A DNA stretch of 51,022 nucleotides, counting the filler, from Catajapyx aquilonaris (Eukaryota): the NCBI GenBank assembly GCA_000934665.2. It is 2 parts of 2 records of this genome, joined end to end, with 100 filler letters (N's around TTAATTAATTAA, not from the genome) between each part and the next. Parts side by side here need not be neighbours in the genome. Positions count along the whole stretch, not along the records: positions 25,510 to 51,022 come from JYFJ02005367.1; 1 more part is not named here. One strand, given 5' to 3'. A program made the translations under genes and the position numbers. Shown here piece after piece: positions 1,849 through 48,046 of this stretch (its first letter is position 1; every line of letters starts with the position of its first letter). The notes below the pieces were generated by a model, which was given only the letters and a program-made list of their open reading frames with translations, was not told the DNA's origin and searched no databases.

Positions 1849-4800
1849 TCTAATGTTACGGCTACAAACACCAAGCCACGTTCCTGTCGATGCCGTGTAT
1901 GCATCACTTCAATATTCTGCATGTCAATAATATTATCATTATTATATTAAATATTTCTTCCCACGCTGTCCAAAAAAATCAAATCCCTTCCCTTATGTCA
2001 CGTGTGAGGTTGTAGAAAGTCCTTCCATACACTGTGGTGTCTAATGAATGTACAATTTGCATTGAATCAGCCGGAATGATTGCATCATATAATATTCTGA
2101 AGCAGCATGACTGTACTACTGTAAATGATACTTATTATGCCAGTTTCCCATGGTGGGCTTATCTGATCAATGGCATGAGTTTAGTAATGATATAGGTTGC
2201 TTTTTTTAAATTAATTTGTAAACATGGGTTTTGAAATTGAAACCTGGTAGTTTAGATGCATCATATTAGTTAAAAATATTAAACCAGTGGTTAAGTAAAT
2301 ATCGCTCGACACATGTGCTGTAAGAAAGCATTAAATTTGAAAGGCGCTTAGCATCATCATGTGTGTTCAAAATGAAGTGTAAAACCAATGTCATTTATAG
2401 CAATTGAGCGTGTCGTTTTGGAAGCACAATTTTCCTAACCTATCATTACTCCGGTGGCTACCGGTCATATAACTGGAGAGGGTTGGCCCGGGGCATGCTT
2501 GTTGCGGTGCTGCTTCTGGTTCAAAGTTCGCAACCAAGTGACCATTGAGAATGTGCCAGCGAAGTGGACACGTAGCAGCAACAGTACACGCATGACTGAG
2601 AGTTTGCTAACTTCTTTTTGCAACCTTAGCTTTCCACCGATTCCATGCCCAGACATTACTGTCAAGGCTTTTGCAAGCCACTTTCCAACATATGGCTGAC
2701 CACTCTTTATGAATAAGCTTTCATGTACTCTAACAGAGTTTAGTAACATTATTGCTGCTTTAGAGCCATTTATTTTTTTAAAAAAAAACTGCAAGTACAC
2801 TAAAAGTACTTTTACGGTCTGAGCCAACTTAGATAATGCAATAATCAATTGTTATAGCTGATGAGGTCATCCATGCAAGACAGTAGTTGCAGTTGCTTGC
2901 AATAAAATTGCGCAATGTGAAAGGGCTTGAATATAGGTGTGTCCCTGGGTATGGGCAAAGTGAACCGGGCTGTCACACATGGCATCAGTGACCGGTGCGA
3001 GGGCTTTCAAAGCCCGTGTGCAAATTCGCAAAGCGCACACAATCGGGTTACGAGCACTTTTAATTCAAAAAAGTGGCGCGAAACGGCAGGGTGTTGCGGT
3101 TCACCCAGTAGGTCAGTTGGTATATTTTTGCATTGGCTCCATATATTACTACGCAATCCTTCTTAGTGGCACTAAATTGCCAACACTTAGCCTAATGCTC
3201 GCGCGAATTTAATCCCGCGTGTGACAGTTCTGAGTGAATTCTTCATGAGACAGCATTATGGTACATGCATGAACCGGCCTTTTCTTGACACGTGAAAATC
3301 AGGGCTTAACGGCATACATTGCGCATTAACAACGACAAACTGCTGATCTGGTTTTTATCTTATTTTATGATACGGCTTGCAGTCGTGACGCATTACATGG
3401 TGGGAAATTTTAGTCCCTTGCGTGCTGATGTTTCAAGCAGGACGTTTACAAGTGAAAAATGGAGTACATTTACTGGACATTTATGTCCGGTTTTTATATT
3501 TTCAAAAGTACGATGACAAGCGGCGTAATACTGGCACATAAGTTTTTTTGTTGCGAACATATCTGTTGTGAACAAAACTGCTACTGATTACACTTAAACA
3601 TAACTGTATACAAATATAATATATTACCGATACATGGAAACTCATGTTACTCTTAAAAGAGGTTTCTTTCAGCACTCTAGTGTGAAATCAAGAAAATGTG
3701 CTTAATAAGCACCTTGACTATTGTTGTGCTTCACTTTTTAAATTATTTGCTTGAAAGTAAATCAGAAACTTTCAATCAGTATGTCAGTCAAATATAATAT
3801 AGTTATTAAAATCATTACCTGTGACGAAGAGTTGCACCACATAACTCGACGAGAAGCATTTGGACACTGCTTCATTTACTGGAAATAAATGGACTTAAGG
3901 AGTTTATTACTTCATATCAACCTCAATCAACAAACTAAAGCCAGTATATTATCCCACTGCTGTTAGCACGAGAATAAAATGAATGAAATCTTCTTCCAGC
4001 CACATCCAGGTAATTGTAGCTTATCCAGCGTCATATCAACACCCTCACGCATCATGTATAACGAAGCAGCTGCAATGCAAAAAAGTTTTCACGCGAGCAT
4101 CATATAAAAGGCCGAGCAATGAAAGTGAGTAAGTGTATTGTGTGTGGGTTGGGCCATGCACACACAGACGTGGTTTAATAATAATAATGATACCATCTGC
4201 TCCGCCGTTACTGACCTGTTGACCTCGACCCATGTCTTCCTGAGATGGACGGGAAGTTGGCAAGATGCAAACGGAATTGCCAAATGCATTGTTGACCCCT
4301 CCCTTTCCTCCTTCCCCCTTTCGCCAATTTGCATATGCACTTAGGAAGCAGTATGTCCGGAAACAAGTTTGCCCTAATCTGATATTCGGGAAAATTAATC
4401 GAGTTGCTTCGCACATCTTCCCTGGGTATATAGATATACATATACATATTTAGAGCTTGCATGCAAGTGGAGATTAATGCGGTAGCTTCCTGCCATGGGC
4501 AAATCACAAAAGTTGGGCGTTGCCACTTGCAAGTTGAAGCAAATCGTGTTGTGCCTCATCTGGCTGGGGGTTGATCGTGGTTTATGACTCTGACTCACTG
4601 CAGGTACAGTAGTCGGAATAATAAAATGGAAGACATGTGCGACTTTGGAATGAGCCGGCAGTCTTTCTCATGTAGATTCAACCTGCTAATATGCTGTTAT
4701 TTAATTAATTAGCCAATGCGAGAAGGTTGTACAAGAAAAAATTAGGTGTAGAAAAAAAATGGTGGAGGGTCCATACATTTTGGTTGTTCATATGCAAAAT

Positions 4801-7800: not shown

Positions 7801-9299
7801 TATTTCGGTGCAGCCTGCGTAGGCATTCGTGATCCACTTAATATAGGTATTATTTCCTTCAAGATTAAGACAACTTGTCTCTTTTTATGGCAGATCGTCA
7901 GCCTTCGGATATTTTGCATAAGAGCTGCAGCACATATGCTTGCTTTAAAACATCATTCGGGATAATTATATGGCATGATATTAACACTTTATGACTGCTG
8001 AATATCAAATTTAACTTCATTAATAATAATGGTCTGTCTCTCTACAATGCTTTAATAAGCAGTTATATGTTTATATCTTCTATCGGTGAAGTAAATGCCT
8101 GCAGCAGTTTCAAAATGTGCGTGTAAGGTGACTTGAGTTTAATGAGTGCTTAATACCATATGGTGACTCTAATATACGTATTTAGGAATGTAAATCTTAA
8201 ATATGAAAAATAGCAGTTAGTGAAATGAGCTATTATTTCTCAGTTAGAAGAATTTATAAGACATACCGTACCTACATATAATAAAACGAGCATTACAATC
8301 AATTTACAAACTCCCTGACCTGTTGTTAAGAACCTTTCTACTCTGTTAGCTGTATACCCAAACCATCAGTCAGCAGTATGGTAATGGCGATGGTAATGGA
8401 ACTTATGGCCGGTTGCATGGACGAAGGTCAATCCAGAACAAGTAGCTTAACTGATTAGTTATATTCACATGGAATGAATCATTTGTTCTGCAGTCTCCCC
8501 TTAGAGAGGAGATTTTAGCGTGAATTGCAAATAAATTATTGGAAGCTAGTGTAAAATGAGGGTCCCATAATGTTTCCGAATGTATAGGACTACTATTTCC
8601 ACCAATGCAGAAAAGAATAACCTGTCACCAAATTGGTTTTGAATATCCAAGCTTGGAGCTCTTTGCGACTACATATTGCGGAATCTGTTATTCAGCCAAT
8701 GACCCCGTAAAAGTTTTAATATTGGCAGAAAGAGAGAGCCGTTTAAAACACATTGCAATAAAATAATCACCCAATCACTTTTGTGTGTAGCATATTGTCG
8801 CATTTCATTAGGATATCTAGTCGCTATAATCGAAAATGAAGGGATTTACAAATGATGAGAGAAACACATGTGTTATGAAAGTTGGTAACAAAAAATTATC
8901 ATCATCTTCATTTTCATGGATAATAAAGATGTCACACCCATGTTTTTTTCATATCCTATACCCTGTATACGGTTTGATTATTGCATTCACTACAAGGAGT
9001 AACAAAAAGCATGCCTGTAATTCTACATAATTATATGCACATTCCCAGGACAAGGAAGACATAAGGATGAATGAGTGATGTGCATAGCAAAATAAACCTA
9101 TAATGCATTGATTGGAAACTGTATGTACTACAGTAATAGCTTTCAGCACGAAAATTCCAAGTGAAATTAATTATGAAAAACTCGTATGTACACAGCTTAT
9201 AATAATTCATACCCCGTTATCAGCCATCGGCTCTTTAGGGGGGAAGTTTGTTTTGCCTGGAACTCTTTGCTTTTCATTTTACTGTGCTCTTTGGGGTAG

Positions 9300-35200: not shown

Positions 35201-38200
35201 TCAAGAGGAACAAACGCAAGGACACCCCAGGCCAGTTTCATATTGTTACATATAAGGAAACATAATCCGGACTTCTCAGTGTCGGGGGACATAATTAGAC
35301 AAATTGAGTCTGCTGGAGGGCAAGCGAACTTTATACTCCGGGTATGGCCCCAGATGTTGAGTGATTAGTTTAACGCAATTGTGTGCTTCAAAAGGATCAA
35401 TCCTGACCGAGACAGAAACGTGCTGCATTCGGCGTAATGAGCAATTCCGATGGCAGACTAGAGGGGATTATATAGCTATGGTTAACAAGACAGCGTTGCA
35501 ATGGGGCTGTTTGGTTGATTGTCCCCATGAGGGCATGTGTTTTTTTTCATCACGTGTGTGCACACACACAGGACGAGTGCACACAAGCGGATTTTCACTT
35601 TGTCGGCCTACGCAGGAGGGGGAATTATGTTGGTGGTTTTGCGGTTCTTTTCGGGTCACGGACTCACTTTGCCCAACTTTTCCGGTGGATTTGATTCGCT
35701 TCTGTGTGGCGATTTTATGGCGCGATGGGTGCGATGAAAACATGGTCTTATCCGGTTGGAATAATTGCGGGACCGAATTCAGATGCCATGTGCGCAGAGA
35801 TTTGCGAACGTCGCAACAGGCGACAAACAAATGTTGATCCGCAATTGTGTTGCACCTGTCGAGCATGCTGTGTACTCTGAATGGTACAGTGCACATCGGT
35901 TCAATTTGACAGACTTCGCTCACAGCATTGGCATATACAGTACGTACAGTAGTGACCACATAAGCATGCCTGCATGTGAATAAGTGACATTTAAATGCAA
36001 GTCTGATGAGGCTAAAAAGTTGGATTAGTCGAATCTGGCTTGAATTAGTTCCCTTTGGCAGACAGCAGCAGTCCTCATAATCGAATTACGCGACAGATGG
36101 GTCCAAGGGGGTCCTTTTGTCTCTCCTTCCGCTGCTACCGAGATGGAATTGTCAAAAGGTTTCGACTGGGAACCAGGTGGGAAGATCTATTTACACTCCT
36201 TCTCTATACACTAGAAATGCACTAGGGGACACCTCAACATAAATTGCAATTGTTGTGTACCATCCACTCTGTGCAGATTGGTGGCGACAGCTCATTTTAA
36301 TTTCCCGACTAGGAACCGTGTGACTGCATCCTGAACCTCGTTATTCACTTCCCCATGCTGCTTTTTATTCGACATGACGACACCATCGATTATTTTATGA
36401 TGTGCATTTTTAATTTTTCAGCCGCCGGGCCTTTTCACGTAATTTTGTCCTCCCAAGCTACGCGGGGGTGGAAGGGAAGAAAACTTAAAAAATGCAAGCA
36501 AATTGGCCACACTTAGAATGATGAGGTGCGATCATTTTCTATATAGCTCTCAGCATTTGCTCCAAAATATCTGGGTCTCGAAACTTCTGCAAACTTGCCT
36601 TACCGCGGCATTACCGCTCCAGGGTCCGAAAATTTGATGTGGGATTATAAATATGATCGAAACTTTCCAAAGTGGTTCCATCTCGCATCCCCGTATAACA
36701 AGCTTGGAGAAAATATGATGGGAAAAACAGGTTCCTCGTTCCTATATAAGTGAGGCACATTTTTTTTCCCTCCCTTGAAGATCGATTGGGTCGTGAACAT
36801 GCATTCTTCGTCGATGGTTCAGTGACGGTGTGAAGAGCTGTATATATTTTGACCCTACGTGGTATGCTACATGGTGCGCACCAGTGAGGCCCTTTTCAGT
36901 TGGAACTTTTTTTTGGGGGGCCAAGTCACATTTCCATGCACCATCAGATTCCCTTTGAAACTTATATCGACATTCTATGTCCTCCAGAACGGAAATTCGA
37001 TCCGATTTTTCCCCCAGTAAATCTGGGTGGCATCAAAGGATCGGGCCAGGCAAACGTGATAATAAGGAGATTTATGTGTTTACCCTTCTGCGACCACTTA
37101 TCCCCGAGGCGGATTTTCTCTCTGCATGTGTCGTCCAGCAAAAATTCAGGGCTTTGAGAAGAGCCTTGCTGGATTATCCGTAGCGTCCAGGCTTTAGGGA
37201 AGAAATAGAAGGTGACTATTTCCATCGGTTTCCAATAGCCGGAAGGAATCACCGTAGCAGAGCCTATTTTGCCAGCCCCTTCCTCTCTCAAAGACCATTG
37301 GAAATAAATTGGTATCCAAGATCCTTTCTAACTGGTTCCGAATGGGATTCGTTTCCTGTTGCTCTTTGAAGTCGCACGTGTTGGAGTTTTTAAAAAGGAT
37401 TGACTTTTATCCTTCAAACGGTGTTTGAGAAGTGATTTTTAGGAAATGTCTGCTGGAATGTTGGTGGAGTTATTTTGCGCCTGTTCCCCAGTTTTATTGA
37501 TGTGCCTGGAAATATTCTGGCAGTGAGTCTATATGGGAATAATTACGAGCGTGTTTAATTTTGCTCTTTGCAGGACAAACTCCAGGGACATCGTCGGTGG
37601 GCGTGAATGGAAACGGAAGAATGGTCCTTAAAAGCACCTCGTACGACAACCTCCAAGGTAAAGAAGAAAAAAAAACTGTTTGCTTCTGACTTTGTTTGTG
37701 CAGGCAACTGATGAAAGAATTTAAAGGCGAGCTTCATGCTAGCTACCACAAACAAACAGTGCAATACTGTGTTTACCACAAGTGTAACGCTCTGCCTTTA
37801 TAAACCAATTTGGCAACAGGTTAAGTACCAATTATGTTTCATTTTCAGAACTCTCAGATGAGCAGGTTGGTGGATACTTGAGGGATAATCCTGACTTCTT
37901 GGAGCAGTTTGTAATGGAGGAGGTAGAACTTGAGCAGCTCGAGAGATGGATGATACGTCGTATGCAGAGGGCCAAAACGAGAACCGAACCTAATGGTAAG
38001 TCTACATTATTTCATCATTAGTTGCCAATCAATACCCGGTTTTTTTATGCTAAAAGTTGGAACGAAGGTAGCTGCTCCGAAAAGTCTGACTGCGTGCAGT
38101 AATGTATCATAGATGAAAAATCGGGTTCAGAGGGAGAGATCATACTGCCGTCATAAAGAGAGCAAGAAGAGGCTATGAATTTTTTTACTGCATGTATTTG

Positions 38201-41200
38201 AGCGAAATGGCAGGCCTTTTATTAAAGTTTTATAGCGCATGAGCGTCCGCGAATCCAATACTTTCGGGCCCAAAATTACTCTTTTTGTCCCAACCCCATC
38301 TTTTAATCCCCCATTTTAATCATAAATCAATTCACTAACGATTCTTAAAGCTTGTTTTTATCCGTCCTTACAGAATCAGGTAAGGCTTCAGCTCCACCAA
38401 GTTGATCTGGGGGATTATATTGTACCTTTATGGCAACAGGTGTTTTCCCGCTGTTGGGTTTCCTAATCTCTTGCTCTTTGGCGAATGTAATTGGGCCCAT
38501 GTTGGAAGAAAATAGTCGGATGGAGTTTCTAAGGAAAAGGTGCAGTTGTACGATATCAGCAATACACTTCTCACTCACAAATCCGTTAGCAGTCAGACCA
38601 AAAAGCCTCTGAGATTCTGGTAAACACCTTTTATGCGGTCGTCATCCTTGAGGTAGTGGACTGGCCCGAATCAATCAGAGAAGGCTTAGCAGCAAGACAA
38701 CAAGGCGAACAGAATATTGACACACGTTTCTCCGGTCCTTTTCAGGTAAAATTGGGAGGAAGACGAGTCTATCCAGGTGGAAGGTAAGGAAAATCAATCG
38801 CTATTATTTCCCTGGCTTGGATCACTTTCCATGCTCCAGGATAACAGCGCTAGATATTTATAGAATGCATCGATCGCTAGTTTTTCTAACCTTTAATTTG
38901 TATCGTGCTTGTTAAGCCCCCGTCTATACTGAGAATGTTAAGTTATCTGGTTTCTTCCACGAACTGGTTCCTCTAATAGCAATCCAGTAATCGGATTATT
39001 AGGTTTCGGAACATCGCATCCGAGCTCTTAAGATTAATAACGGTTCATTGGTTTCATCTTTCTTTTTACTATAGTTTTGCGTCCATGCGGACAAGAGGAA
39101 GATGCTTCAGGAATTGACCCAGAGCCTGCACTTGCGCCCTAACAAAGCCAATGTTCTTTGGGAACTGGGCACATGCATCTCTTCGGCGGTCAATGCTGAT
39201 GGGTTCCGCCTGTACCTGCTCGACAACTCGACTCAGCAACTCAGGAGATACGACGGGAATGTCTCGGAGGAGTATGTGTTTTTTTGTGGGGGTGTCTTTG
39301 AGCACCGCGGTACTCTCTAATTATGGCACTGACACGATCATGAATATTGATGGGGGGTGAGTGTCAATTTCAGAGAGTGGCATGAAAATCTGCGGGATTA
39401 AACTTGAGCTGCGGAAGTCACTTGATGTCAGTTTTTAAAAACTCATTTAAAAGTATGTCGTTTTTTTTGTTTCAGAGTGGATCTCCCTAATGGATATGTG
39501 CAGGATATATGCACTGGAACCACCCTGCCAGCATATGTGTCCCAGACACGTGAGGCGGTTCGGACGTCCAGCCCTGAGAATGATCCACGTTTCCCGTTGG
39601 GCTCAGGCTCTCCGGACGAGCCTTGGGAGCACTTTCTGGTACTTCCCATCATACAGTCAGATGGGGAGCAGCGGGCTGTGCTGGAGCTCCTGAGGAGAGC
39701 TGGAGCCAGTCCCTTCTATGAGGAGGACGAGGAAATTGTCAACAGCTATCTAGTCTGGGGAGGAATTGCCATGCACTATGCAGAACTATATCATAATATG
39801 GACAAACAGAGGAGACTCAATGACTTCTTACTGACAGTAGTTAAGTGAGTAAATCACATCACTTTAATGATTGGTGATGAAGTATGATGAGGAATGTTAA
39901 TGTGCCATGCTGCTCCTTTTGCCAGATCCATCTTTCAAGATATGGTTAGTATGGACACACTGATCATGAAGGTGATGAACTTTGCCCAGAGGCTTGTGGA
40001 TGCTGATAGAGCATCATTGTTTCTCCTGGATAACCGAAGCAATGAATTGTATGCACGATTGTTTGACATGGGGACATCCAACGATGATGAGCCTCCCAAA
40101 CTGGAGAAGGAGATTAGGTATTGGAATGACAGAGGACAAAGTGCCCTGCGATGGCTGATGTGCTTGAACTGCACAATTTTTGTTTTATCAGGTTCGGTTT
40201 GGGAACAGGCATTGCTGGAACAGTGGCAAAAACTGGCGAGGTCCAGAACATAACTGACGCATATTCAGATCCAAGGTTCAACAGATCTGTGGACCAGCTG
40301 ACGGGATATAGAACCAGGACCATCCTTTGCATGCCCATTTACATACGAAGCAGTGTCATAGGGGTTGTCCAAATGGTTAACAAACGGTCTGGAGTCTTCA
40401 CCAAAGTGCGTATTCATTACAATTTATTTTTATTTTTTATGCCTTCTATCTCGAGTCACTTGTGACAGACATAATTTCAACACAGGAAGATGAAGCATCT
40501 TTTGAGACGTTTGCTGTGTATTGCGGGTTGGCATTGCATCATGCCAAGCTCTATGACAAGATTCGTCGATCAGAGCAGAAGTATAAAGTAGCCCTCGAGG
40601 TCCTCAGTTACCATAATTCCTGCCAGGAAGATGAAGTTAGGATGCTCAAAATGGAGGGAGTACCTGATGACATGGAGAGAGTCCTTACGTGAGTTATCTA
40701 CAAAAACATTGTAAAATATTCTGTCAATGTTGGCTGTCCGAAAAAAAACTAGTTTTTTCAGGGAAAAAGTAGGCTACACCTTTTTTTGGGAAAAACTTAT
40801 TTTTTCTGAAAACAATTCATTTTTATAGAAATTCTTATGACCGTTGTGTTTAATTAAGTAGACATCTTACCCAAAAAATCAAGCGAGCAAGCAAAATTCA
40901 GTTCTTCAGTGACTATTTACAAAATCCGGTCCCTTCCACGAAAGGCCTGGCCTGTATGACACTAGTGCAGAATTCAGTAGCTTAAACAATATTTTACCCC
41001 CACACAAACTGTTTTCTTCCCTTTTTGCAGCTATGAGATGAATCCAATGTCACTGAGTGACCAGGAAAAAGTGCGCTACACCATTGCCATGTTTGTGGAT
41101 TTGTTTGGCCTCTCACGTTTTGAGAGTGAGAGCCTCATACGTTTCTCACTCACCGTAAAGAGGAACTACCGGCGAGTACCCTATCACAATTGGGGACATG

Positions 41201-44200
41201 GATTTGCAGTGGCCAATTCCATGTACACCATACTCAAGCACTCCCAAGAAATCTTCAAACCAATGGAGGTACTACCACTTAACATCTGAATTGGCGTTCA
41301 AGCTCTAAAGCAGAAGATTGTCTTCCTTTAAACGATTTCAGTAGCAAATATATCAGTGCGTGATGCTTGGAAACCATACTAATTTTGTACATATTATCTC
41401 TTTGACAGCGCTTGGCACTGTACATAGGCTCACTCTGCCATGACCTGGACCACCGTGGAAAGAATAACAAGTTCATGCTGGATTCCGAGTCCCCACTAGC
41501 AGCAGTGTACAGTACCTCAACAATGGAGCACCATCACTTCAACCAGACCATCACCATCCTGCAGCAGGAGGGACACAACATTTTCCAGAAGCTGGGAAGC
41601 CATGAATACAAGCAGGTGCTGGGGCTCATCAAGCACTGCATCTTGGCCACCGACCTGGCCTTGTTCTTCCCCAACAAGGCCCGGTTGGGACAAATGGCCA
41701 AGGACGACTCCTTCAGCTGGGATGATCCAGACCATAGGTATGGGTTTCCGATAGAATTTTTTAATAATTAACTTACTGAACATTGGAATTGTGGTAGGAT
41801 GCTTCTAGAGACAATCGCCATGACTGGAGCTGACCTTTGCGCCAGTACAAAGCCTTGGGGTGTCCAGTCCGAGACAGTGCGAGTCATTTTTGAAGAGTTC
41901 TATGAACAGGTGAGCTAAAAACCATGACGGCTGTTGTAAGAAGACTCTACAGATTGTGTGGCCATTTACTGCTTGACTATAAGCACCAAGCCGCAGGTCA
42001 CTTGTTCCAGTTGCATGTATTATCAATCCCAGTCTGATCCTAAGATTTTAAGCAATAATCCTGGGCTTGGGCTAAAGGAAAGCAGACCCTGATACAGTTA
42101 CCCTCAAATTATTATTTTAGATGTAAAATAATAATTAGAGGGTTAGTTCTGGAACCAGTGATGTGTGCTTAGACGATGACTATTAATGTTGCAGCCAATG
42201 AAGCCATTGTAATGAGTGAAAATGGACAGCTGCAGGTCCATGCATGGCTTTGTTACGGTTGCTACCTTGGCATAACTACAATGTCAGTAATGGCCACACA
42301 AAGCAATACGTGTATCAAGTTTGAAAACCTTGCAGACTGGGTCAAGGGGCATGTCATGCAGTGGAGGAATAGCTCTGATGCACATCTTTTTTGTACAAGC
42401 AAGTCTTGAAAATGCATGCAATAGTGTGGAAATAGGGTCTGAGTAAAATGGCAATATTGGAAACAAAATTGTAAGACCCCCAACCCAGTAGAAAAGAAAA
42501 GTAAAGTCTGAGGGAAAGTGATTTAAGGGTGACGAGGAGCGAGCAGCCGGAAGGACACCAATGCCAATGATGGACAGGTACCTGGCAGACCAGCAGTCCC
42601 TCACTCAGGTTGGTGCCTTCAGTCGCCTGACACGCAGCATCCTCTTGACTATGCTGTAATCCCTCTTCTCACCCTCTTCTCTACACCCGGCCTCTCGATC
42701 CAGGCTCCCTGCCAGGACTCGATTGAGGGTCGATCAGTGGAGCAAAGTTTAAGTTCAATGCAGGCGCGACGTTTACAGACCAATGGAACTACTACTTTCA
42801 CTGGTTCACTGTTTACTTGCCATGTAATGATTATTCTAGAGACCTCTTAAATTTGTAATAAAACTGATAATAATTGCTTTTTTAGCACATCTTTCTGCAA
42901 CTTACGTTATTGAACTCTGATAGATAAATGCTGGAAGCTTACTTTTCATAAATGCTGACAGCATTTTCTGTACAGCAGCAATTAAAGAGTAAAATGGCAT
43001 TGTCAGGTCTGCACTCAAATTAATCTGCTGAGTGCATACAAATACAGTACAATGCACAACCTGGTCATCTGTCATACATGTTAGTTCTGCCATATCAAAT
43101 TCCACTGATGAATCACTTACAAGATGTGAGTAAAAATAGTTTTACGTATTTCTGATTCGCTAAGAATTTATGGTGGCTATTGAAAGTAGTAAGTCCCTGC
43201 ACATGTCTGCAGTAAAGTCTGTTGTAAAGTGTTTTAAATGAAAGTGTCAACAAACTGGGGAAAGAGTGGTTTGATTTGCACACGAATAAGCTTGCTGTTA
43301 TGATGCTCTTTCAGGGAGACGCGGAGAAAGAGGCAGGGAGGGTACCCATTCCTATGATGGACCGGAACAAGAAGGAGGAACAAGCTAACATGCAGGTGAA
43401 CACGCAGGGCTCACTTGCGCCACCGCTTGTTCCTTTTACACTCGCACTTTTCTTCTCACCAAGCACATTGCTTTTTCACATTTTTGGGGAGCCTCTTCCA
43501 TTTTGGAGGCTGCGTTTTTTTTTGTTTTTTTGATTTTCCAAAATGTCAAGACATTATTTTTCTCTGTACATGGCCTTACTGGTACTTTCGGTGCTTTTGT
43601 GGTGGTTTGGCCCAACTTTTGTGTACTTGTTCAAGGTCCTACTTTTAACATAGAAGTACAGTCACCCCATACTATTTTAACTTTCATCTTTCATTATAAC
43701 ATTTCTGTGTGGTATTTTTCACCTTCATTTATCTGGAGTTGTGGTTTCCAACCTTTCTCGAGTCACGACCCCCTTTTATAATAACCAAGTAACCTGCGAC
43801 CTCACCCCCACATTTGTGTAAAGAGGCACTTTTATAGGGCAAGGAAAACATAAACATATTTTCATAACATAATTATTACCAAATATTTAATTAACCCAAC
43901 ATTTAATGAGATGGTTGCACTTGCATCAGGCAAACATAATTCGCGGCAGCGTGTTCGTAAAAAAATTGAGAAAAAATGCGGAGACCCCCCAGACAACCAT
44001 TCGTGACCCCCTTGGGGGTCGCGACCCACAAGTTGGGAACCACATTCTAGACTATCTAGAGCAGTGCTTCCCAAATTGAAAATAATATTTGGGGTCGCAA
44101 GGGAGGGTAATAAATTATTTTCACAAAATGATGCTATCTTTCTTGAAAATCATGACCATAGGTCATTTCACTGTTTACCTGTCTTTTCATGTTGGCGGAT

Positions 44201-45720
44201 CGGATATTTTACAAGACGATTTTTTGGGGTCGCCAACGAAAGAAATTGGGAAGCACTGGTTTAGAGAGAAGGATAGTGATAAAAATGACACTAAGGTAGT
44301 GCTTTATTTTTCTGACGCTGTATAATGATTTTATGCTCATTAGTCTCCACGTCTTTCAATGCACAAATTCGTAGTTGATGCCACCCTACATATTGCACAG
44401 TCAAAGTTGGCCTTTCAAATGATCTGTGAGTGAGAGAATAAAATCATCTGTCTCCCAACCTTCAGTGACTGCAGGTGATTATGACTGTGCATAATGTATA
44501 TCGCTAAAAAGGTAGTGTCACTACCACAAGTCCACTCAGCAAGTAGTAGTATGCGAAAATCAACACCTTCACTGAAAATTTTGAAACTGCTTCAGATTAA
44601 CGCCTCAGTATGCACATGCAGGCAGTCTCCAACTTACATAAGTGGATCATTCCGCAACATTACATGCAAGGCAATTTTACGTAACTCAGGACGTCAAAAA
44701 ACTCCTACAGTATACTGTACTGTACCTTACACGTACGTACATAGAAACTAGAGCCACTGTCATATTCAATTGTGGCCTTTGTGAGAGAGTCAGGATTCTC
44801 CGCAATGCCCAGTAGCTGGGCATCATGTCCGTCATGCGTATTTAATGAGAAAATGAGTCTCGGCAGGCACGTTCGAGTTGCCACTCATAGCAATTTAATG
44901 TGGTTTGGATGGATGGAGGCATTTCACATTACTAGTTTGTTTGGGAAATTTGGCAGCTCTTTTTGTGCATGTTGTATGCAGTTAATGTAAGTCTGGATCT
45001 ACAAAGGTCAAGGCTACATAAGTTGGGGACAGTAATTACTTCACGTGCACCTTTCATCTGTAATTCAGCAGGTTCTTTCATGAACCACACTCCAGATAAT
45101 TCCGAGTTTTCGTTCCTGTTTCATATACTTGAACCAGGCTTGAACCATAATTTGGGAAATAGTTTGGCATAAACTACATGCCATACAAAATGATATTAAT
45201 TTGGCAATGGACATGTCATTTTTTGACAAAATCTGGAAGCAGCGTTCAATGGGTAAAGTAATTGAGAACAGTGAAGTGGAATGGCAGGGTGCAACTGTCC
45301 TCGGATTATGGGTCAGGTACAACTAATTCCTTCCCAACTCAGGTGGGCTTCATCACGGGAATCTGCATACCATGCTATGAGCTGCTGGGAAAGTTCCTTC
45401 CTGGTACCCAGCCAATGCTGGATGGATGCAAGAGGAATCTAGAGCGCTGGCAGCAGATAGCCAGTGAGCAGCGGGCCATCTCGGAAGCCCAGAAGAAAGA
45501 GGAGGAGGAGGAGAAGGTGATTGCTGAGGCTGAGGCCAAGGAAAAGGCAGCTGCTGGAGCAAAGGAAGTGCCACCGCCTACTCTTGAGGTTGTGACTGCT
45601 GCCAATGAAGAAGAGGAGGATGATGATGAAGGAGTGGGAGAAAAGGTGGAGCTGGATCCAGAAGTTGTGCTAGAGGATGACGAGGATGATTTTGTGGTGA
45701 GGGAGATTGGATCCACTTGA
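29179..45720 (+). CDS. PDE10A: cAMP/cGMP phosphodiesterase of the PDE10A / pde-5 family (GAF-A, GAF-B, PDEase); spliced model join(29179-29262,30627-30747,31049-31246,37574-37657,37849-37995,38746-38783,39075-39271,39476-39844,39926-40117,40192-40405,40486-40688,41031-41268,41409-41737,41798-41909,[42528-42608 or 43315-43395],45343-45720), ~994 aa
   Basis: All junctions GT-AG and phase-compatible (2985 nt, no internal stop); GAF motif NK....F...DE; catalytic YHNWGH and HDLDHRG; PDE10-type N-terminal helix [17 protein letters not shown] and C-terminal PIPMMDR...Q.GF...CIPCY. Exons from 37849 onward are secure; the first four rest on splice phase only. Confidence 0.92.
30627..30747 (+). CDS. 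PDE10A: PDE10 candidate N-terminal exon, [12 protein letters not shown]...[13 protein letters not shown]
   Basis: TTCCATATTCAG| acceptor phase 0, open frame, CTG|GTAACG donor phase 1. Confidence 0.5.
31049..31246 (+). CDS. PDE10A: PDE10 candidate Ser/Arg/Pro-rich N-terminal exon
   Basis: Pyrimidine tract + GAG acceptor, 198 nt open, consensus GTAAGT donor, phase 1-1. Confidence 0.55.
35056..35230 (+). CDS. PDE10A: PDE10 candidate alternative first coding exon (acidic stretch, hydrophobic helix, basic cluster)
   Basis: [58 protein letters not shown]; acceptor TTTCAG at 34987; putative non-canonical CAG|GCCAGT donor in phase 1, matching 37574. Confidence 0.5.
37574..37657 (+). CDS. PDE10A: PDE10 exon ([27 protein letters not shown])
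   Basis: Strong TTTGCTCTTTGCAG acceptor, AAG|GTAAAG donor, phase 1-1, in frame with next exon. Confidence 0.75.
37849..37995 (+). CDS. PDE10A: PDE10 exon (conserved N-terminal helix)
   Basis: [44 protein letters not shown] / GTAAGT. Confidence 0.9.
38746..38783 (+). CDS. PDE10A: PDE10 38-nt microexon ([13 protein letters not shown])
   Basis: TTTTCAG / AAG|GTAAGG; needed to convert phase 1 to phase 0. Confidence 0.88.
39075..39271 (+). CDS. PDE10A: PDE10 exon (start of GAF-A)
   Basis: [18 protein letters not shown]...[13 protein letters not shown]. Confidence 0.92.
39476..39844 (+). CDS. PDE10A: PDE10 exon (GAF-A)
   Basis: DPRFPLG...LVLPII...VLELLR...[16 protein letters not shown]...LNDFLLTV. 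Confidence 0.94.
39926..40117 (+). CDS. PDE10A: PDE10 exon (GAF-B)
   Basis: [35 protein letters not shown]...ELYARLFD. Confidence 0.95.
40192..40405 (+). CDS. PDE10A: PDE10 exon (GAF-B)
   Basis: [44 protein letters not shown]...VVQMVNK. Confidence 0.95.
40486..40688 (+). CDS. PDE10A: PDE10 exon (GAF-B end, linker helix)
   Basis: [43 protein letters not shown]. Confidence 0.95.
41031..41268 (+). CDS. PDE10A: PDE10 exon (catalytic domain, YHN motif)
   Basis: [24 protein letters not shown]. Confidence 0.95.
41409..41737 (+). CDS. PDE10A: PDE10 exon (catalytic domain, HD motif)
   Basis: [11 protein letters not shown]...[16 protein letters not shown]...ILATDL. Confidence 0.96.
41798..41909 (+). 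CDS. PDE10A: PDE10 exon (catalytic domain)
   Basis: [46 protein letters not shown]. Confidence 0.93.
42528..42608 (+). CDS. PDE10A: PDE10 alternative catalytic exon A ([27 protein letters not shown])
   Basis: 81 nt, phase 0-0, TTTAAG / CAG|GTTGGT; 14/27 aa identical to exon B; not in ORF track. Confidence 0.82.
43315..43395 (+). CDS. PDE10A: PDE10 alternative catalytic exon B ([27 protein letters not shown])
   Basis: 81 nt, phase 0-0, CTCTTTCAG / CAG|GTGAAC. Confidence 0.9.
43739..44045. mobile_element. hAT/Charlie-like MITE
   Basis: Ends TGTGGTTTCCAAC ... GTTGGGAACCACA; subterminal CGACCC repeats; flanks resemble the NTCTAGAN target. Confidence 0.75.
44062..44258. mobile_element. hAT/Charlie-like MITE (197 bp)
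   Basis: TIR CAGTGCTTCCCAA ... TTGGGAAGCACTG; 8-bp TSD ATCTAGAG / GTTTAGAG (6/8); internal GGGGTCGC motifs. Confidence 0.85.
45343..45720 (+). CDS. PDE10A: PDE10 last coding exon (end of catalytic domain plus acidic tail)
   Basis: [39 protein letters not shown] then E/D-rich tail, TGA; AATAAA at 45845-45850. Confidence 0.94.
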   Translation: MGFITGICIPCYELLGKFLPGTQPMLDGCKRNLERWQQIASEQRAISEAQKKEEEEEKVIAEAEAKEKAAAGAKEVPPPTLEVVTAANEEEEDDDEGVGEKVELDPEVVLEDDEDDFVVREIGST

Positions 45721-46114
45721 GGATAAGCCATTGTAAAATCCTACGTGTTTCGAACACTCGTCTTCAACTACTTCACTTTGTTTCACTGTGATCACTAGTT
45801 TCTTACTGGCTATTTTCATCTGAAATGCTAGCTGAGACTCACTTAATAAAAAGTTAGGCCAGTAGGGGTAAGTATTTAAGAAAAGTGAAGTCACTTCTTA
45901 CATCCTCACTTTGCACATCTAATGTTCTACTATGAAAATAAATGGACACTTTTAAGCAGGTGAAATGTCATTTCAAGACGGTATGTCAACAAGTCATCTT
46001 AGGGCCACAATATAATTTATTCAACGCATATAATTTGGTCCCATTGCATAGTAATACTCCAATAGATTTAACAGTCAATAATAATAAAAATACAATAATA
46101 TTGTGCGTGAGATT

Positions 46115-48046
46115 CTAAGCTTGCTTTGGTGGCATTTTGAGTATCCCAACCCTCCTCAAGTAGCGGACAATGAAAGGAGTGGCGGCTGCTGTTATACTCA
46201 TTCTTACTGGTACAAAGAGCTTGTGAATGGCATAAGCGACCACAAAGGTACTGGCCCCTGATGTCAGCTTACTCTCCACCAATTCATTGCTCAGCCCCAA
46301 GCTCCTTAAGATGCCAACTACGTCTAGACCACTGGAAAGTAAGAATATTATTAAAAATTAATAATAATCATTTCCAGAAGATGGATTACAAGGGTACCAG
46401 ATCCCATCACCAATAGCTAAATAATTTTGTGATATATACCTGGAAACGGCAGTGTAGCATCCTCCGAGGGACAACAAAGAGATACACACGTGAAAGACGA
46501 CAACAGTGCTTCCGTAGTCCTTGATCAGCCTTCGAAGCTTTCCCTTGCGATCCTCTTTGCCCTCCTCAGGAGCAGGTGTGTGGGTGGACGTGCTGAAGTT
46601 CCGCCTGTCTGTACGTACCAGGGCATATTTGCCATCCTGCACTTTGGACTCTTATGATAACTAAAAGCTTCAGAAAGCACAGTGAAATCCACTTCTAGTT
46701 TAGCAAGCTGAAGATAGTGGCATGTCATGTTAAAGCACAAGCTGAAAGTTATAAGCGTGTTTCACTGTAGAAGTGTAGCAGAAGTGCAATCCAACTTTTC
46801 ATATCAGAATCTCCTATCATATTGTACTGCAGCAAAAACAATGTATAACTGCCTTACAAACAGGTATGATCTTCTCAACTCAGAAACATTATTGATAAGC
46901 ATAATCAAATTATTTCAGATTTTTTTTTTCACCCTCTCACTTTCCGGCGATTCTGACATGAAACTGAAGCTTGCCTCTAAAGAATGTTTATTGCCTTACT
47001 CTCATCGTCGTCAACACCATTCTTGCTGATGTTCTTAAAATGTGTGGAATGCAAGTCCTGTGCGAGGTACTTCTGGTCCTGTCCCCAGTTCCCACCAGGC
47101 ATGTTGAGATGTGTCGGAAGGTTCTTGGTCCCTGGTGGCTCGTAGGGCTTAGGCACGTTGCTCTGCATCACCGAGTTGAGGCTCAGGACAGCAGTCTGGT
47201 CATACCCATCCACATAAGCATCATCTCTGGTGCTGCTGTCAGTCCCTGATGAGTGGCCAGCCACCACAGTCTGGTCACTCATGAAGCTCGACCCAAAAGC
47301 GCTCCCAGTCTGTTGCGAGGCAATGGTCGAACCAGAGAGATCCCGGGCGCGTTGGGGTGAAAAGCGCGACTTCTCACCAGCGTTGATCTCCTCCATATTG
47401 TTTGGCAATGGGAGGGCCCCAGGGTCAGGGAAGCGCGTCTGCGGGGTGCGGTGCAGATTGGCGTAAGGTGGCTGTTTAGTAGTGTCTGAAAGAGTAATGG
47501 TAACAGTTATTGTGCTGAATATGTGCAACAAGTGGCTTGCACACAGGCAGCAGAAAGACTTCAGAACACTGCATACTGCGCTAACAGACTGGACTACTTC
47601 GCATGCCTCAGCTGCATGCAAGTACTGTAAGTATTCCTGCAGGAAAAATGCAAGTCATGCGTAATTACAGTTTTATTCTTTGTAATATTTTTTATTACAG
47701 CTACGTCTATGTTATTTACCCAAAATGCTTGCCCTTCAGAAAGCAACTTTTTTATGCGGTGCATGTGATCGCCTGCAGGTGCCCGTCACGATGGGAAAAA
47801 CAGGGCAAAACAATATGACAAAGGGCAGCATGCACGTGCTGATCAGGCACTTACGCAAGTACCTAGAGGTGAATACCATTTCCAAGGCCGGCCGACACCT
47901 TGGCCAACTTTACCTTCAAAAATTGCAATTTTTCCCCCGCAACATTTTGCAGCGAATGATTATACCGTACCCTTGAGTGTCCTGCACTGCACCACCACCC
48001 GTCCCATGCTCTTGAATTTCGGCACGGTCCTGGCTATCTTCCACAT
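46115..48046 (-). CDS. FAM210B: FAM210B (DUF1279, mitochondrial); model complement(join(46115-46331,46440-46650,47000-47485,47971-48046)), 329 aa, or 167 aa without the 486-nt exon
   Basis: KLRRLIKDYGSTVVVFHVCISLLSLGGCYTAVSSGLDV...GASTFVVAYAIHKLFVPVRMSIT...PFIVRYLR is the FAM210B domain; exon 1 MWKIARTVPKFKSMGRVVVQCRTLK is basic and acid-free like a presequence; phases compatible (990 nt). The 46650 acceptor and inclusion of 47000-47485 are less certain. Confidence 0.85.

What the first reader, a model, noticed from the sequence alone, without database searches (positions are those of the whole stretch)
42528..43395. Tandem mutually exclusive exons that swap part of the PDE10 catalytic pocket
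Seen: two 81-nt phase 0-0 exons, [27 protein letters not shown] and [27 protein letters not shown], each fitting between ...EEFYEQ and VGFITG...; 14/27 identical residues, 7 of them with different synonymous codons, no stops or indels, intact AG/GT. That pattern suggests an old duplication with both copies under selection. Known: the segment corresponds to the end of helix 14, the M-loop and the invariant substrate-binding Gln (human [27 protein letters not shown]); PDE alternative splicing is usually at the termini, not in the active site. Inference: one gene yields two enzymes differing next to the invariant Gln (SLTQ vs ANMQ) and in M-loop charge (YLAD vs NKKE), possibly tuning cAMP/cGMP preference. 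Double inclusion keeps frame and the 706-nt spacer is too long for steric exclusion, so an active exclusion mechanism is needed. I do not know a description of this for PDE10 but cannot check the literature.
Basis: partly seen in the sequence, partly recalled or inferred. Interest (0 to 1): 0.9.

Follow-up and report, generated by a model that had tools for sequence, protein, structure and literature searches.

The report
Twin alternative exons in PDE10 pocket
A PDE10-type phosphodiesterase gene, probably of an arthropod, carries two old, intact copies of the small exon that forms part of its cyclic-nucleotide pocket; RNA shows the second copy in use, while the first looks preserved by selection but was not seen expressed.

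Summary
Two 81-nt, phase 0-0, AG/GT-flanked exons (A 42528-42608, B 43315-43395) are homologous: 14 of 27 residues identical, 7 of them by different codons. They lie 706 nt apart and are the only two copies in the window.

The gene is PDE10-like. The only run available holds one spliced contig that joins 41909 to 43315 and 43395 to 45343. Exon B is therefore used and exon A skipped in that transcript. Exon A was not seen in RNA.

Exon A is nevertheless not a decayed copy:
- Its nearest relatives are the equivalent PDE10 segments of insects (19 of 27 identical; pN 0.18 against saturated pS).
- The same up / A-type / B-type / down layout, with intact splice sites, occurs in the Blattella germanica gene model PSN28964.1 and in 8 related metagenome loci.
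- In both lineages the first copy has the weaker acceptor.

The exon carries the counterparts of human Pro712, Met713, Glu721, Gly725 and Gln726. A and B differ at the Glu721 (Q/E) and Gly725 (T/M) positions.

Mutual exclusivity, a change in substrate preference and an exclusion mechanism remain inferred; no RNA pairing above chance was found. I found no published description. This is a new member of a known kind (tandem-duplicated alternative exons).

The parts
41798..41909 (+). Upstream constitutive exon (..[30 protein letters not shown]), donor CAG|gtgagc
   Evidence: Spliced contig of run X1 joins 41737>41798 and 41909>43315; translation
41910..42527 (+). Intron upstream of exon A (618 nt). 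Its last 40 nt are purine-rich and hold 6 extra AG dinucleotides
42528..42608 (+). Exon A, 81 nt, phase 0-0, 'type-Q' version ([27 protein letters not shown]). Weak acceptor (7 of 20 pyrimidines) and weak donor (CAG|gttggt). Not seen in RNA
   Evidence: Skipped by the X1 contig that joins 41909>43315
42609..43314 (+). Intron between the two copies, 706 nt
43315..43395 (+). Exon B, 81 nt, phase 0-0, 'type-K' version ([27 protein letters not shown]). Good acceptor (14 of 20 pyrimidines). Used in RNA
   Evidence: junctions 41909>43315 and 43395>45343; best PDB match human PDE10A
43396..45342 (+). Intron downstream of exon B (1947 nt). Contains inverted-repeat, repeat-like sequence around 43760-44270
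45343..45717 (+). Last coding exon ([15 protein letters not shown]...), the end of the PDEase_I domain plus an acidic tail
40192..41737 (+). Preceding RNA-confirmed exons of the same gene: 40192-40405 (GAF), 40486-40688, 41031-41268, 41409-41737 (PDEase_I core)
   Evidence: Junctions; translations; Pfam; PDB best hits PDE10A

Best explanation
Exons A and B are tandem duplicates of the PDE10 exon that encodes the end of helix 14, the M-loop and the invariant substrate-binding glutamine. B is the default exon: it has a good acceptor and is the form found in RNA. A is a selectively maintained alternative exon with weak splice sites at both ends. I infer that A replaces B in a regulated subset of transcripts (by tissue, stage or condition). 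One gene would then make two PDE10 enzymes that differ in the M-loop and at pocket residues. The differing positions are the counterparts of human Glu721 (Q in A, E in B) and Gly725, next to the invariant Gln (T in A, M in B), plus position 12 (M in A, I in B). The pair is old, and the same ordered pair exists in the cockroach lineage. Shown: the homology, intact frames and splice sites; use of B with A skipped; PDE10 family assignment; the similarity and pN/pS of A to other arthropods' PDE10 segment; the two-exon layout in the cockroach lineage; the mapping onto pocket residues. Inferred: that A is spliced in at all in this organism; that A and B exclude each other; that the enzymes differ in substrate or inhibitor preference.
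For: Observation.
Family: two exons score best against human PDE10A chains (55.7 bits against 45.9 for PDE5; 119.9 against 94.6). Pfam finds GAF and PDEase_I.
RNA: one 822-nt contig of run X1 joins 41909>43315 and 43395>45343 with GT..AG ends.
Exon A is constrained:
- winA against winB gives pS 0.73, pN 0.28.
- winA against the cockroach-type first copy gives pS 0.84, pN 0.18, with 19 of 27 residues identical. That is more than A shares with its own neighbour B (14 of 27).
- A full HMMER search with exon A found 3 true relatives among 5 hits: P0007, P0009 and P0005.
- A follow-up search found 38 PDE10-annotated fragments with the type-Q segment. In 9 of these 38 the segment is read straight into the downstream exon (..SQ|[LVI]GF..GICIPCY), so this version makes working transcripts elsewhere.
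- In a 32-row, 27-column tree, winA sits with P0026 and P0009 (support 99/94 and 98/89) and winB with the cockroach second copy (79/66).
Same layout elsewhere: P0007 is PSN28964.1 of Blattella germanica and carries a type-Q copy followed by a type-K copy. Of the 56 metagenome loci, 8 (L006, L007, L009, L015, L016, L031, L032, L033) show up exon, then about 1.15 kb, A-type, 818-840 nt, B-type, 3-6 kb, down exon. All copies are AG/GT-flanked, and the B-type peptide is identical in all 8.
The first copy has the weaker acceptor in both lineages: window 7 against 14 of 20 pyrimidines; cockroach-type 8-9 against 14 of 20.
Pocket mapping: one search aligns B to the human PDE10A segment. With Pro712/Met713 at exon positions 13/14, Glu721 falls at 22 and Gly725/Gln726 at 26/27. 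Passages of PMC12571622 and PMC4694998 list Met713, Gly725 and Gln726 as active-site residues, and say Gly725 opens the selectivity pocket that Met816 closes in PDE5.
Against: No transcript with exon A was seen. The only spliced contig over the region skips it. Contigs drop rare variants, the depth was only 7.4, and a single run of unknown kind was available.
Exon A has the poorest acceptor of the 9 examined in this gene (7 of 20 pyrimidines, 6 upstream AGs within 40 nt) and a non-consensus donor, gttggt. This fits a regulated exon but equally a dying one.
A word-based search of 5.8 billion proteins with exon A (45-aa query, longer proteins only) returned nothing. The matching control with exon B found only 2 distant relatives and not this organism's own protein, so that blank says little.
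Orthology of A and B with the two cockroach copies is not proven. Forcing winA+winB together costs 11.8 lnL but is not rejected (p-AU 0.114); the same holds for the cockroach pair (p 0.21). Single-copy species such as L001 are about as close to winB (21 of 27) as to the cockroach first copy (20 of 27).
No intron complementarity above chance was found that could enforce exclusion.
Confidence: 0.6

Rival explanations
1. Exon A is a relic. It was once a working alternative (or the ancestral) exon but is now never or almost never spliced in this organism, and has not yet accumulated disabling mutations.
For: The X1 contig skips it. It has the weakest acceptor of 9 in the gene and a poor donor. No protein with this organism's exon A was found.
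Against: The 27-codon frame is intact, there are no indels, and AG and GT are kept. pN is 0.18-0.28 against saturated pS. All residues that are invariant across 35 aligned relatives (G, D, E4, G8, P11, MMDR, final Q) are retained. The first copy is equally weak in the cockroach-type loci, where it is clearly conserved.
Confidence: 0.22
2. Exon A is an ordinary cassette exon that is sometimes added in front of B (A+B together), not a substitute for it. Alternatively both can be skipped, giving catalytically altered or dead regulatory isoforms.
For: Double inclusion and double skipping both keep the frame, because 81 nt is a multiple of 3. The B. germanica gene model P0007 strings both copies together. 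No exclusion mechanism was found.
Against: P0007's tail runs on into the intron after B (query residues 57-88 match contiguous DNA). It therefore looks like an automatic model rather than evidence of a transcript. A+B would duplicate the M-loop and the invariant Gln inside a compact domain. In 9 of 38 relatives' fragments a single copy is joined directly to the downstream exon.
Confidence: 0.08
3. On evolution: the window's pair and the cockroach pair arose by independent duplications of a single ancestral exon, so the type-Q / type-K resemblance and the shared order are parallelism.
For: AU tests do not reject winA+winB as sisters (p 0.114) or the cockroach copies as sisters (p 0.21). Single-copy forms are intermediate: L001 is 21 of 27 to winB, 20 of 27 to the cockroach first copy and 16 of 27 to winA. 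Duplications of this region recur elsewhere: L039 has another pair, P0005 has three partial copies, and L040/L054-L056 have a duplicated neighbouring exon.
Against: The best tree puts winA inside the type-Q group (99/94, 98/89) and winB with the cockroach second copy (79/66). Holding winA+winB together costs 11.8 lnL. Both lineages share the order (Q-type first, K-type second) and the weak-then-strong acceptor pattern.
Confidence: 0.4

Closest known systems
Tandem duplicated exon substitution events (mutually exclusive homologous exons) of animals, as catalogued in PMC9741552 and PMC8373072
   Same: Two adjacent homologous exons of equal length and phase, old, each with its own splice sites, swapping a functional segment of an otherwise identical protein. 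Such events are described as rare, ancient and often convergent between arthropods, nematodes and vertebrates (passages).
   Different: No phosphodiesterase appears in the main text of either paper ('PDE' and 'phosphodiesterase': 0 occurrences; supplements not seen). Here, exclusive use is not yet shown by RNA.
Blattella germanica PSN28964.1 (P0007) and 8 metagenome loci with 96-100% identical exons (L006, L007, L009, L015, L016, L031, L032, L033)
   Same: Same gene family and the same exon duplicated. Same order (type-Q copy first, type-K copy second), similar spacing (818-840 nt against 706 nt), and the weaker acceptor on the first copy.
   Different: The second copy there is far more diverged (GDAEKLAGHVPSPLMDRDRKCELGAIQ; 16 of 27 to the window's B). 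The record is an unnamed fragment model ('putative 3'') that includes both copies. Orthology of the pairs is favoured but not proven.
Human/rodent PDE10A splice variants
   Same: Same enzyme family. Exon B aligns to the human M-loop segment.
   Different: [quoted passage not shown] The vertebrate-type contig L038 showed one copy of this exon in the 3.4 kb held. Human PDE10A has Gly at the position before the invariant Gln, which opens its selectivity pocket; the window has Thr (A) or Met (B).
Docking-site/selector RNA pairing clusters (Dscam1 exon 6 type; recalled)
   Same: A cluster of homologous alternative exons that needs a way to include only one.
   Different: Only two variants. The best inter-intron pairings are no better than in dinucleotide shuffles (reached by 59, 66 and 96 of 100 shuffles). 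None was found consistently in the cockroach-type loci.

Membership tests
PDE10 (GAF-containing class I cyclic nucleotide phosphodiesterase) | PDEase_I catalytic domain | tested here: met
   PF00233 on exon 41409-41735, E 2.6e-34. The edges of the domain fall on exons 41032-41268 and 45343-45717.
PDE10 (GAF-containing class I cyclic nucleotide phosphodiesterase) | N-terminal GAF domain(s) | tested here: met
   PF01590 GAF on exon 40193-40405, E 2.4e-10. Only this one GAF exon was tested; the tandem GAF-A/GAF-B arrangement was not mapped.
PDE10 (GAF-containing class I cyclic nucleotide phosphodiesterase) | Closer to PDE10A than to the other GAF-PDEs (PDE2, 5, 6, 11) | tested here: met
   Best PDB hits are PDE10A for two exons (55.7 against 45.9 bits; 119.9 against 94.6 bits) and for exon B alone. 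JGI names 9 of the 38 related fragments PDE10. No family-wide phylogeny was made, and the short cockroach fragment alone scores best with PDE6.
PDE10 (GAF-containing class I cyclic nucleotide phosphodiesterase) | Invariant substrate-binding Gln at the end of the M-loop segment | tested here: met
   Both exons end in Q, at the position that corresponds by numbering to human Gln726.
Mutually exclusive tandem-duplicated exons | Adjacent homologous exons of the same length and phase with intact splice sites | tested here: met
Mutually exclusive tandem-duplicated exons | Each copy found alone in mature mRNA; never both, never neither | tested here: inconclusive
   A B-only transcript was seen in one contig of one run. 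No A-containing transcript was seen.
Mutually exclusive tandem-duplicated exons | Both copies conserved under purifying selection | tested here: met
   pN 0.28 against pS 0.73 between the copies. winA to cockroach-type A gives pN 0.18; winB to L001 gives pN 0.14. Only 27 codons, so power is low.
MXE by steric hindrance (intron too short) | Intron between the copies shorter than the minimum needed for splicing | tested here: not met
   706 nt.
MXE by U2/U12 spliceosome incompatibility | One intron with U12-type splice-site consensus | tested here: not met
   The donors are gtgagc, gttggt and gtgaac and the acceptors end in ag. The U12 consensus is recalled and was judged by eye.
MXE enforced by frame shift and NMD | Exon length not a multiple of 3 | tested here: not met
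   Both exons are 81 nt and open in frame.
MXE by competing RNA pairing (docking site/selector) | Intronic complementary elements beyond chance, ideally conserved | tested here: not met
   The best ungapped pairings between the three introns are reached by 59, 66 and 96 of 100 dinucleotide shuffles. The lists show nothing shared. Gapped or short conserved pairings could have been missed.

The most novel reading that the evidence does not exclude
The pair is one ancient arthropod (at least pancrustacean) switch. An early tandem duplication gave PDE10 two interchangeable M-loop/pocket exons: type-Q (..DQQ..[ST]Q) and type-K (..[KR]K.E...Q). Some lineages (the window's organism, cockroaches and their relatives) still splice them alternatively, making two enzymes with different pockets next to the invariant glutamine. 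Most insects then fixed the type-Q exon and other animals kept type-K. On this reading, the insect PDE10 active site descends from what began as an alternative exon.
Probability: 0.3. Interest if true: 0.7.

Novelty: new member of a known kind. Interest (0 to 1): 0.55.

Why it matters
Known PDE isoform diversity is described as lying mostly in the N- and C-terminal regulatory regions. An exon swap inside the pocket would be a different way to diversify a cyclic-nucleotide phosphodiesterase. It would change the M-loop and the residue beside the invariant glutamine. In human PDE10A that residue is Gly725, which determines the inhibitor selectivity pocket; in PDE5 its counterpart Met816 closes the pocket.

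It also provides a natural pair of otherwise identical enzymes for testing how these residues set cAMP/cGMP preference and inhibitor binding. In addition, it shows that automatic gene models (PSN28964.1) can string both copies together. The wider weight is limited. Duplicated alternative exons are common in this genome according to earlier, unchecked notes, and expression of exon A is still unproven.

Tried and rejected
RNA runs: no RNA holder was listed for window:40100-45750. One run of unknown kind (X1) was listed and laid. Both tools are capped at one call, so tissue-resolved junction counts could not be obtained.

Protein searches:
- A 45-aa contiguous translation spanning exon A (longer proteins only) gave 16 candidates and 0 hits at E <= 10.
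- The matched exon B control gave only 2 hits.
- Exon A alone has no PDB match at E <= 10.

Other look-ups:
- No whole genome is held for this window.
- Earlier-findings look-ups by place, by sequence and by the words 'phosphodiesterase PDE10 exon duplicated' were blank.
- The ESM Atlas did not help with the taxon; the nearest clusters were Rotifera, Arthropoda and Chordata.

Exclusion mechanism:
- Inverted-repeat lists for the window and for L009/L015 showed only short AT-rich pairs with no shared pattern.
- RNA.duplexfold on whole introns gave meaningless global duplexes and was dropped.
- The ungapped pairing scan against 100 dinucleotide shuffles per intron pair was not significant.

Phylogeny: the 27-column tree and AU tests cannot decide between one and two duplications. 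The tree used 32 rows: 14 of the 38 proteins, P0003, 15 locus-derived segments and the two window exons. The remaining near-identical insect fragments were left out.

Considered and rejected:
- Chance similarity (E 1.3e-6, only two copies in the window).
- Constitutive double inclusion (one search shows A skipped).
- An origin of exon A from a processed copy of a paralogue. The in-frame read-through after A begins VGAF, like the next exon's VGF, but nothing upstream of A resembles the preceding exon.

Literature: searches, and text look-ups, found no description of a catalytic-domain exon swap in any PDE. Only listings and passages were seen; supplements were not.
Full report
**Observation.** The window holds two 81-nt segments. 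Exon A (42528-42608) translates to [27 protein letters not shown] and exon B (43315-43395) to [27 protein letters not shown]. Each is preceded by AG and followed by GT. They share 51 of 81 bases and 14 of 27 residues. Seven of the 14 identical residues use different codons, and there are no stops or indels. The spacer is 706 nt. A tblastn scan of the whole window finds only these two copies: A against the B site gives E 1.3e-6, and all other hits have E > 1.

**The gene.** RNA-like contigs and translations define these exons: 40192-40405, 40486-40688, 41031-41268, 41409-41737, 41798-41909, then B, then 45343 onward. Pfam finds GAF and PDEase_I. Human PDE10A chains are the best solved-structure matches for two exons (55.7 against 45.9 bits for PDE5; 119.9 against 94.6) and for exon B alone (17 bits, E 0.04). 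Exon A alone finds nothing in the PDB. I did not build a family-wide tree, so 'PDE10-like' rests on best hits and on JGI's name for related fragments.

**RNA.** Only one public run (X1, kind unknown, kept as contigs) holds the stretch. When laid on 38000-47000 it gives GT..AG junctions throughout the gene. One 822-nt contig (depth 7.4) joins 41909>43315 and 43395>45343. So exon B is used and exon A is skipped in that transcript. Contigs drop minor variants, so this shows B is the main form in that sample. It does not show that A is never used.

**Splice signals.**
- Exon A has the weakest acceptor of the 9 examined in this gene: 7 of 20 pyrimidines at -23..-4 and 6 extra AGs in the last 40 nt, against 8-17 of 20 pyrimidines and 0-2 AGs for the others.
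- Its donor is non-consensus (CAG|gttggt).
- Exon B has 14 of 20 pyrimidines.

**Is exon A alive?** Between A and B, pS is 0.73 (saturated) and pN 0.28. A full HMMER search of 1.84 billion representatives with exon A gave 5 hits, 3 of them true relatives:
- P0007 carries the upstream exon, a type-Q copy ([27 protein letters not shown]), a type-K copy (GDAEKLAGHVPSPLMDRDRKCELGAIQ) and then intron read-through.
- P0009 carries the upstream exon plus GDEERRAGRQPMAMMDRYQPDQQANSQ.
- P0005 carries three partial tandem copies.

P0007 is PSN28964.1 of Blattella germanica. A follow-up search from P0009 found 38 fragments, 9 of them named PDE10 by JGI, with a consensus of GDAER.AGR.PMAMMDR.QPDQQANSQ. 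In 9 of the 38 the segment runs straight into the downstream exon. In one (P0026) only a 20-codon in-frame intron separates them. So the type-Q version is the working, often the only, version in many insect-like species.

The window's A is 19 of 27 identical to the cockroach first copy and to P0009, which is more than to its own neighbour B (14 of 27). Against the cockroach-type first copy, pN is 0.18 with pS 0.84. A copy that had been neutral for long would not look like this. A recently silenced copy cannot be excluded.

**The same layout elsewhere.** A scan of metagenome contigs returned 56 loci. Eight of them (L006, L007, L009, L015, L016, L031, L032, L033) have exons 96-100% identical to the cockroach protein. 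Their layout is: up exon, about 1.15 kb, A-type, 818-840 nt, B-type, 3-6 kb, down exon. Every copy is AG/GT-flanked. The B-type peptide is identical in all eight (two nucleotide forms, one synonymous difference). The A-type occurs in five nucleotide forms, with up to 5 synonymous and 2 non-synonymous differences. There too the first copy has the weaker acceptor (8-9 against 14 of 20 pyrimidines).

One more locus, L039, has a different pair with intact splice sites. Other loci have a single copy fused to a neighbouring exon. For example, L001 ([27 protein letters not shown]) is 21 of 27 identical to winB, 20 of 27 to the cockroach first copy and 16 of 27 to winA.

**One duplication or two?** In a maximum-likelihood tree of 32 segments (27 columns, so weak), winA joins P0026 and P0009 (99/94, 98/89) inside the type-Q group, and winB joins the cockroach second copy (79/66). 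Forcing winA+winB together costs 11.8 lnL (p-AU 0.114). Forcing the cockroach copies together costs 6.0 (p 0.21). A shared ancient duplication is favoured, also by the common order and acceptor pattern, but independent duplications are not rejected.

**Taxon.** No genome is held. Earlier unchecked notes on other windows of this genome call it an arthropod, variously crustacean-type or springtail-like, and rich in such exon pairs. The arthropod affinity of exon A agrees with that, but I did not establish the taxon.

**What the exon encodes.** One search aligns B to human [23 protein letters not shown]. If Pro712-Met713 are the P-M at exon positions 13-14, then Glu721 is position 22 and Gly725-Gln726 are positions 26-27. 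L038 shows the vertebrate tail ..VPQGQ. Passages of PMC12571622 list Met713, Gly725 and Gln726 among active-site residues. They say Gly725 opens the PDE10A-specific pocket and mention the long M-loop. PMC4694998 says the pocket is bounded by Pro712 and Met713, involves Glu721, and is occluded in PDE5 by Met816, the counterpart of Gly725.

| Exon position | Human counterpart | Exon A | Exon B |
|---|---|---|---|
| 12 | Ile | M | I |
| 22 | Glu721 | Q | E |
| 26 | Gly725 | T | M |
| M-loop stretch | DKKDE | YLADQ (uncharged) | NKKEE (charged) |

Neither copy has the human glycine. A functional difference is plausible but untested.

**Mechanism of choice.** Steric hindrance is excluded (706 nt). 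Frame-shift/NMD is excluded (81 nt). U12 incompatibility is unlikely (U2-like donors). I looked for competing intron pairings. The lists show nothing consistent. The best ungapped pairings between the three introns are matched or beaten by 59, 66 and 96 of 100 dinucleotide shuffles. The weak-first, strong-second acceptor pattern suggests default use of B with factor-dependent activation of A. This is inference.

**Literature.** Searches combining mutually exclusive exons, tandem exon duplication, PDE10, phosphodiesterase, arthropod and glutamine switch found no description. Two catalogues of tandem duplicated exon substitutions do not mention PDE or phosphodiesterase in their main text; their supplements were not seen. 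A review states that PDE10A variants differ mainly at the N- and C-termini.

**Verdict.** This is a real, old, tandem-duplicated exon pair in the PDE10 pocket. B is expressed. A is conserved but unobserved in RNA. It is most likely a regulated, mutually exclusive alternative (confidence about 0.6) and a new member of a known kind.

Noticed in passing
L040:7811-7900 and 8348-8437; likewise L054, L055, L056: In other invertebrate PDE10-like genes from metagenome contigs it is the neighbouring upstream exon that is duplicated in tandem (..VIFEEFY.Q type, then ..VIMEEFW.Q type), followed by a single copy of the M-loop exon. Both copies have GT donors. L004 and L041 use the VIMEEFW type alone.
   Followed up: partly
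L039:2441-2521 and 4014-4094; L041:1937-2017; L047:393-473: L039 has another AG/GT-flanked tandem pair of the M-loop exon. Its second copy, and the single copy in L041 and L047, end in ..LE. That places a glutamate where the 'invariant' substrate-binding glutamine should be.
   Followed up: partly
P0005 (145 aa, ENA contig of 142,645 nt): One open frame holds one full and two 5'-truncated copies of the M-loop exon, separated by 17-residue spacers that begin like an intron (VRSYD...). This is a recent local tandem repeat of exon plus intron start in another species.
   Followed up: no
window 42609-42656: Reading on in frame past exon A's donor gives [16 protein letters not shown] and then a stop. 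The first residues resemble the start of the next coding exon (VGFITG). This is probably chance, but an A-terminated truncated product is conceivable.
   Followed up: no
window 43760-44270: Repeat-like element in the intron after exon B: inverted arms at 44052-44077 and 44243-44268, and a GGGGGTCGCGACCC palindrome at 44011-44032. Run X1 contigs with loose ends at 44004, 44043, 44195 and 44258 suggest copies elsewhere in the genome are transcribed.
   Followed up: no
window 44777-46006: X1 contigs cover 44777-45250 and 45252-46006 without splicing, across the last acceptor at 45343. This could be intron retention, pre-mRNA or DNA carry-over, or an alternative start.
   Followed up: no
window 46002-47654, minus strand: A neighbouring gene lies on the opposite strand. 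It shows a junction 46331>46440 with CT..AC ends, very high contig depth (422) at 46002-46331, and a 225-codon open frame at 46980-47654. It was not identified.
   Followed up: no
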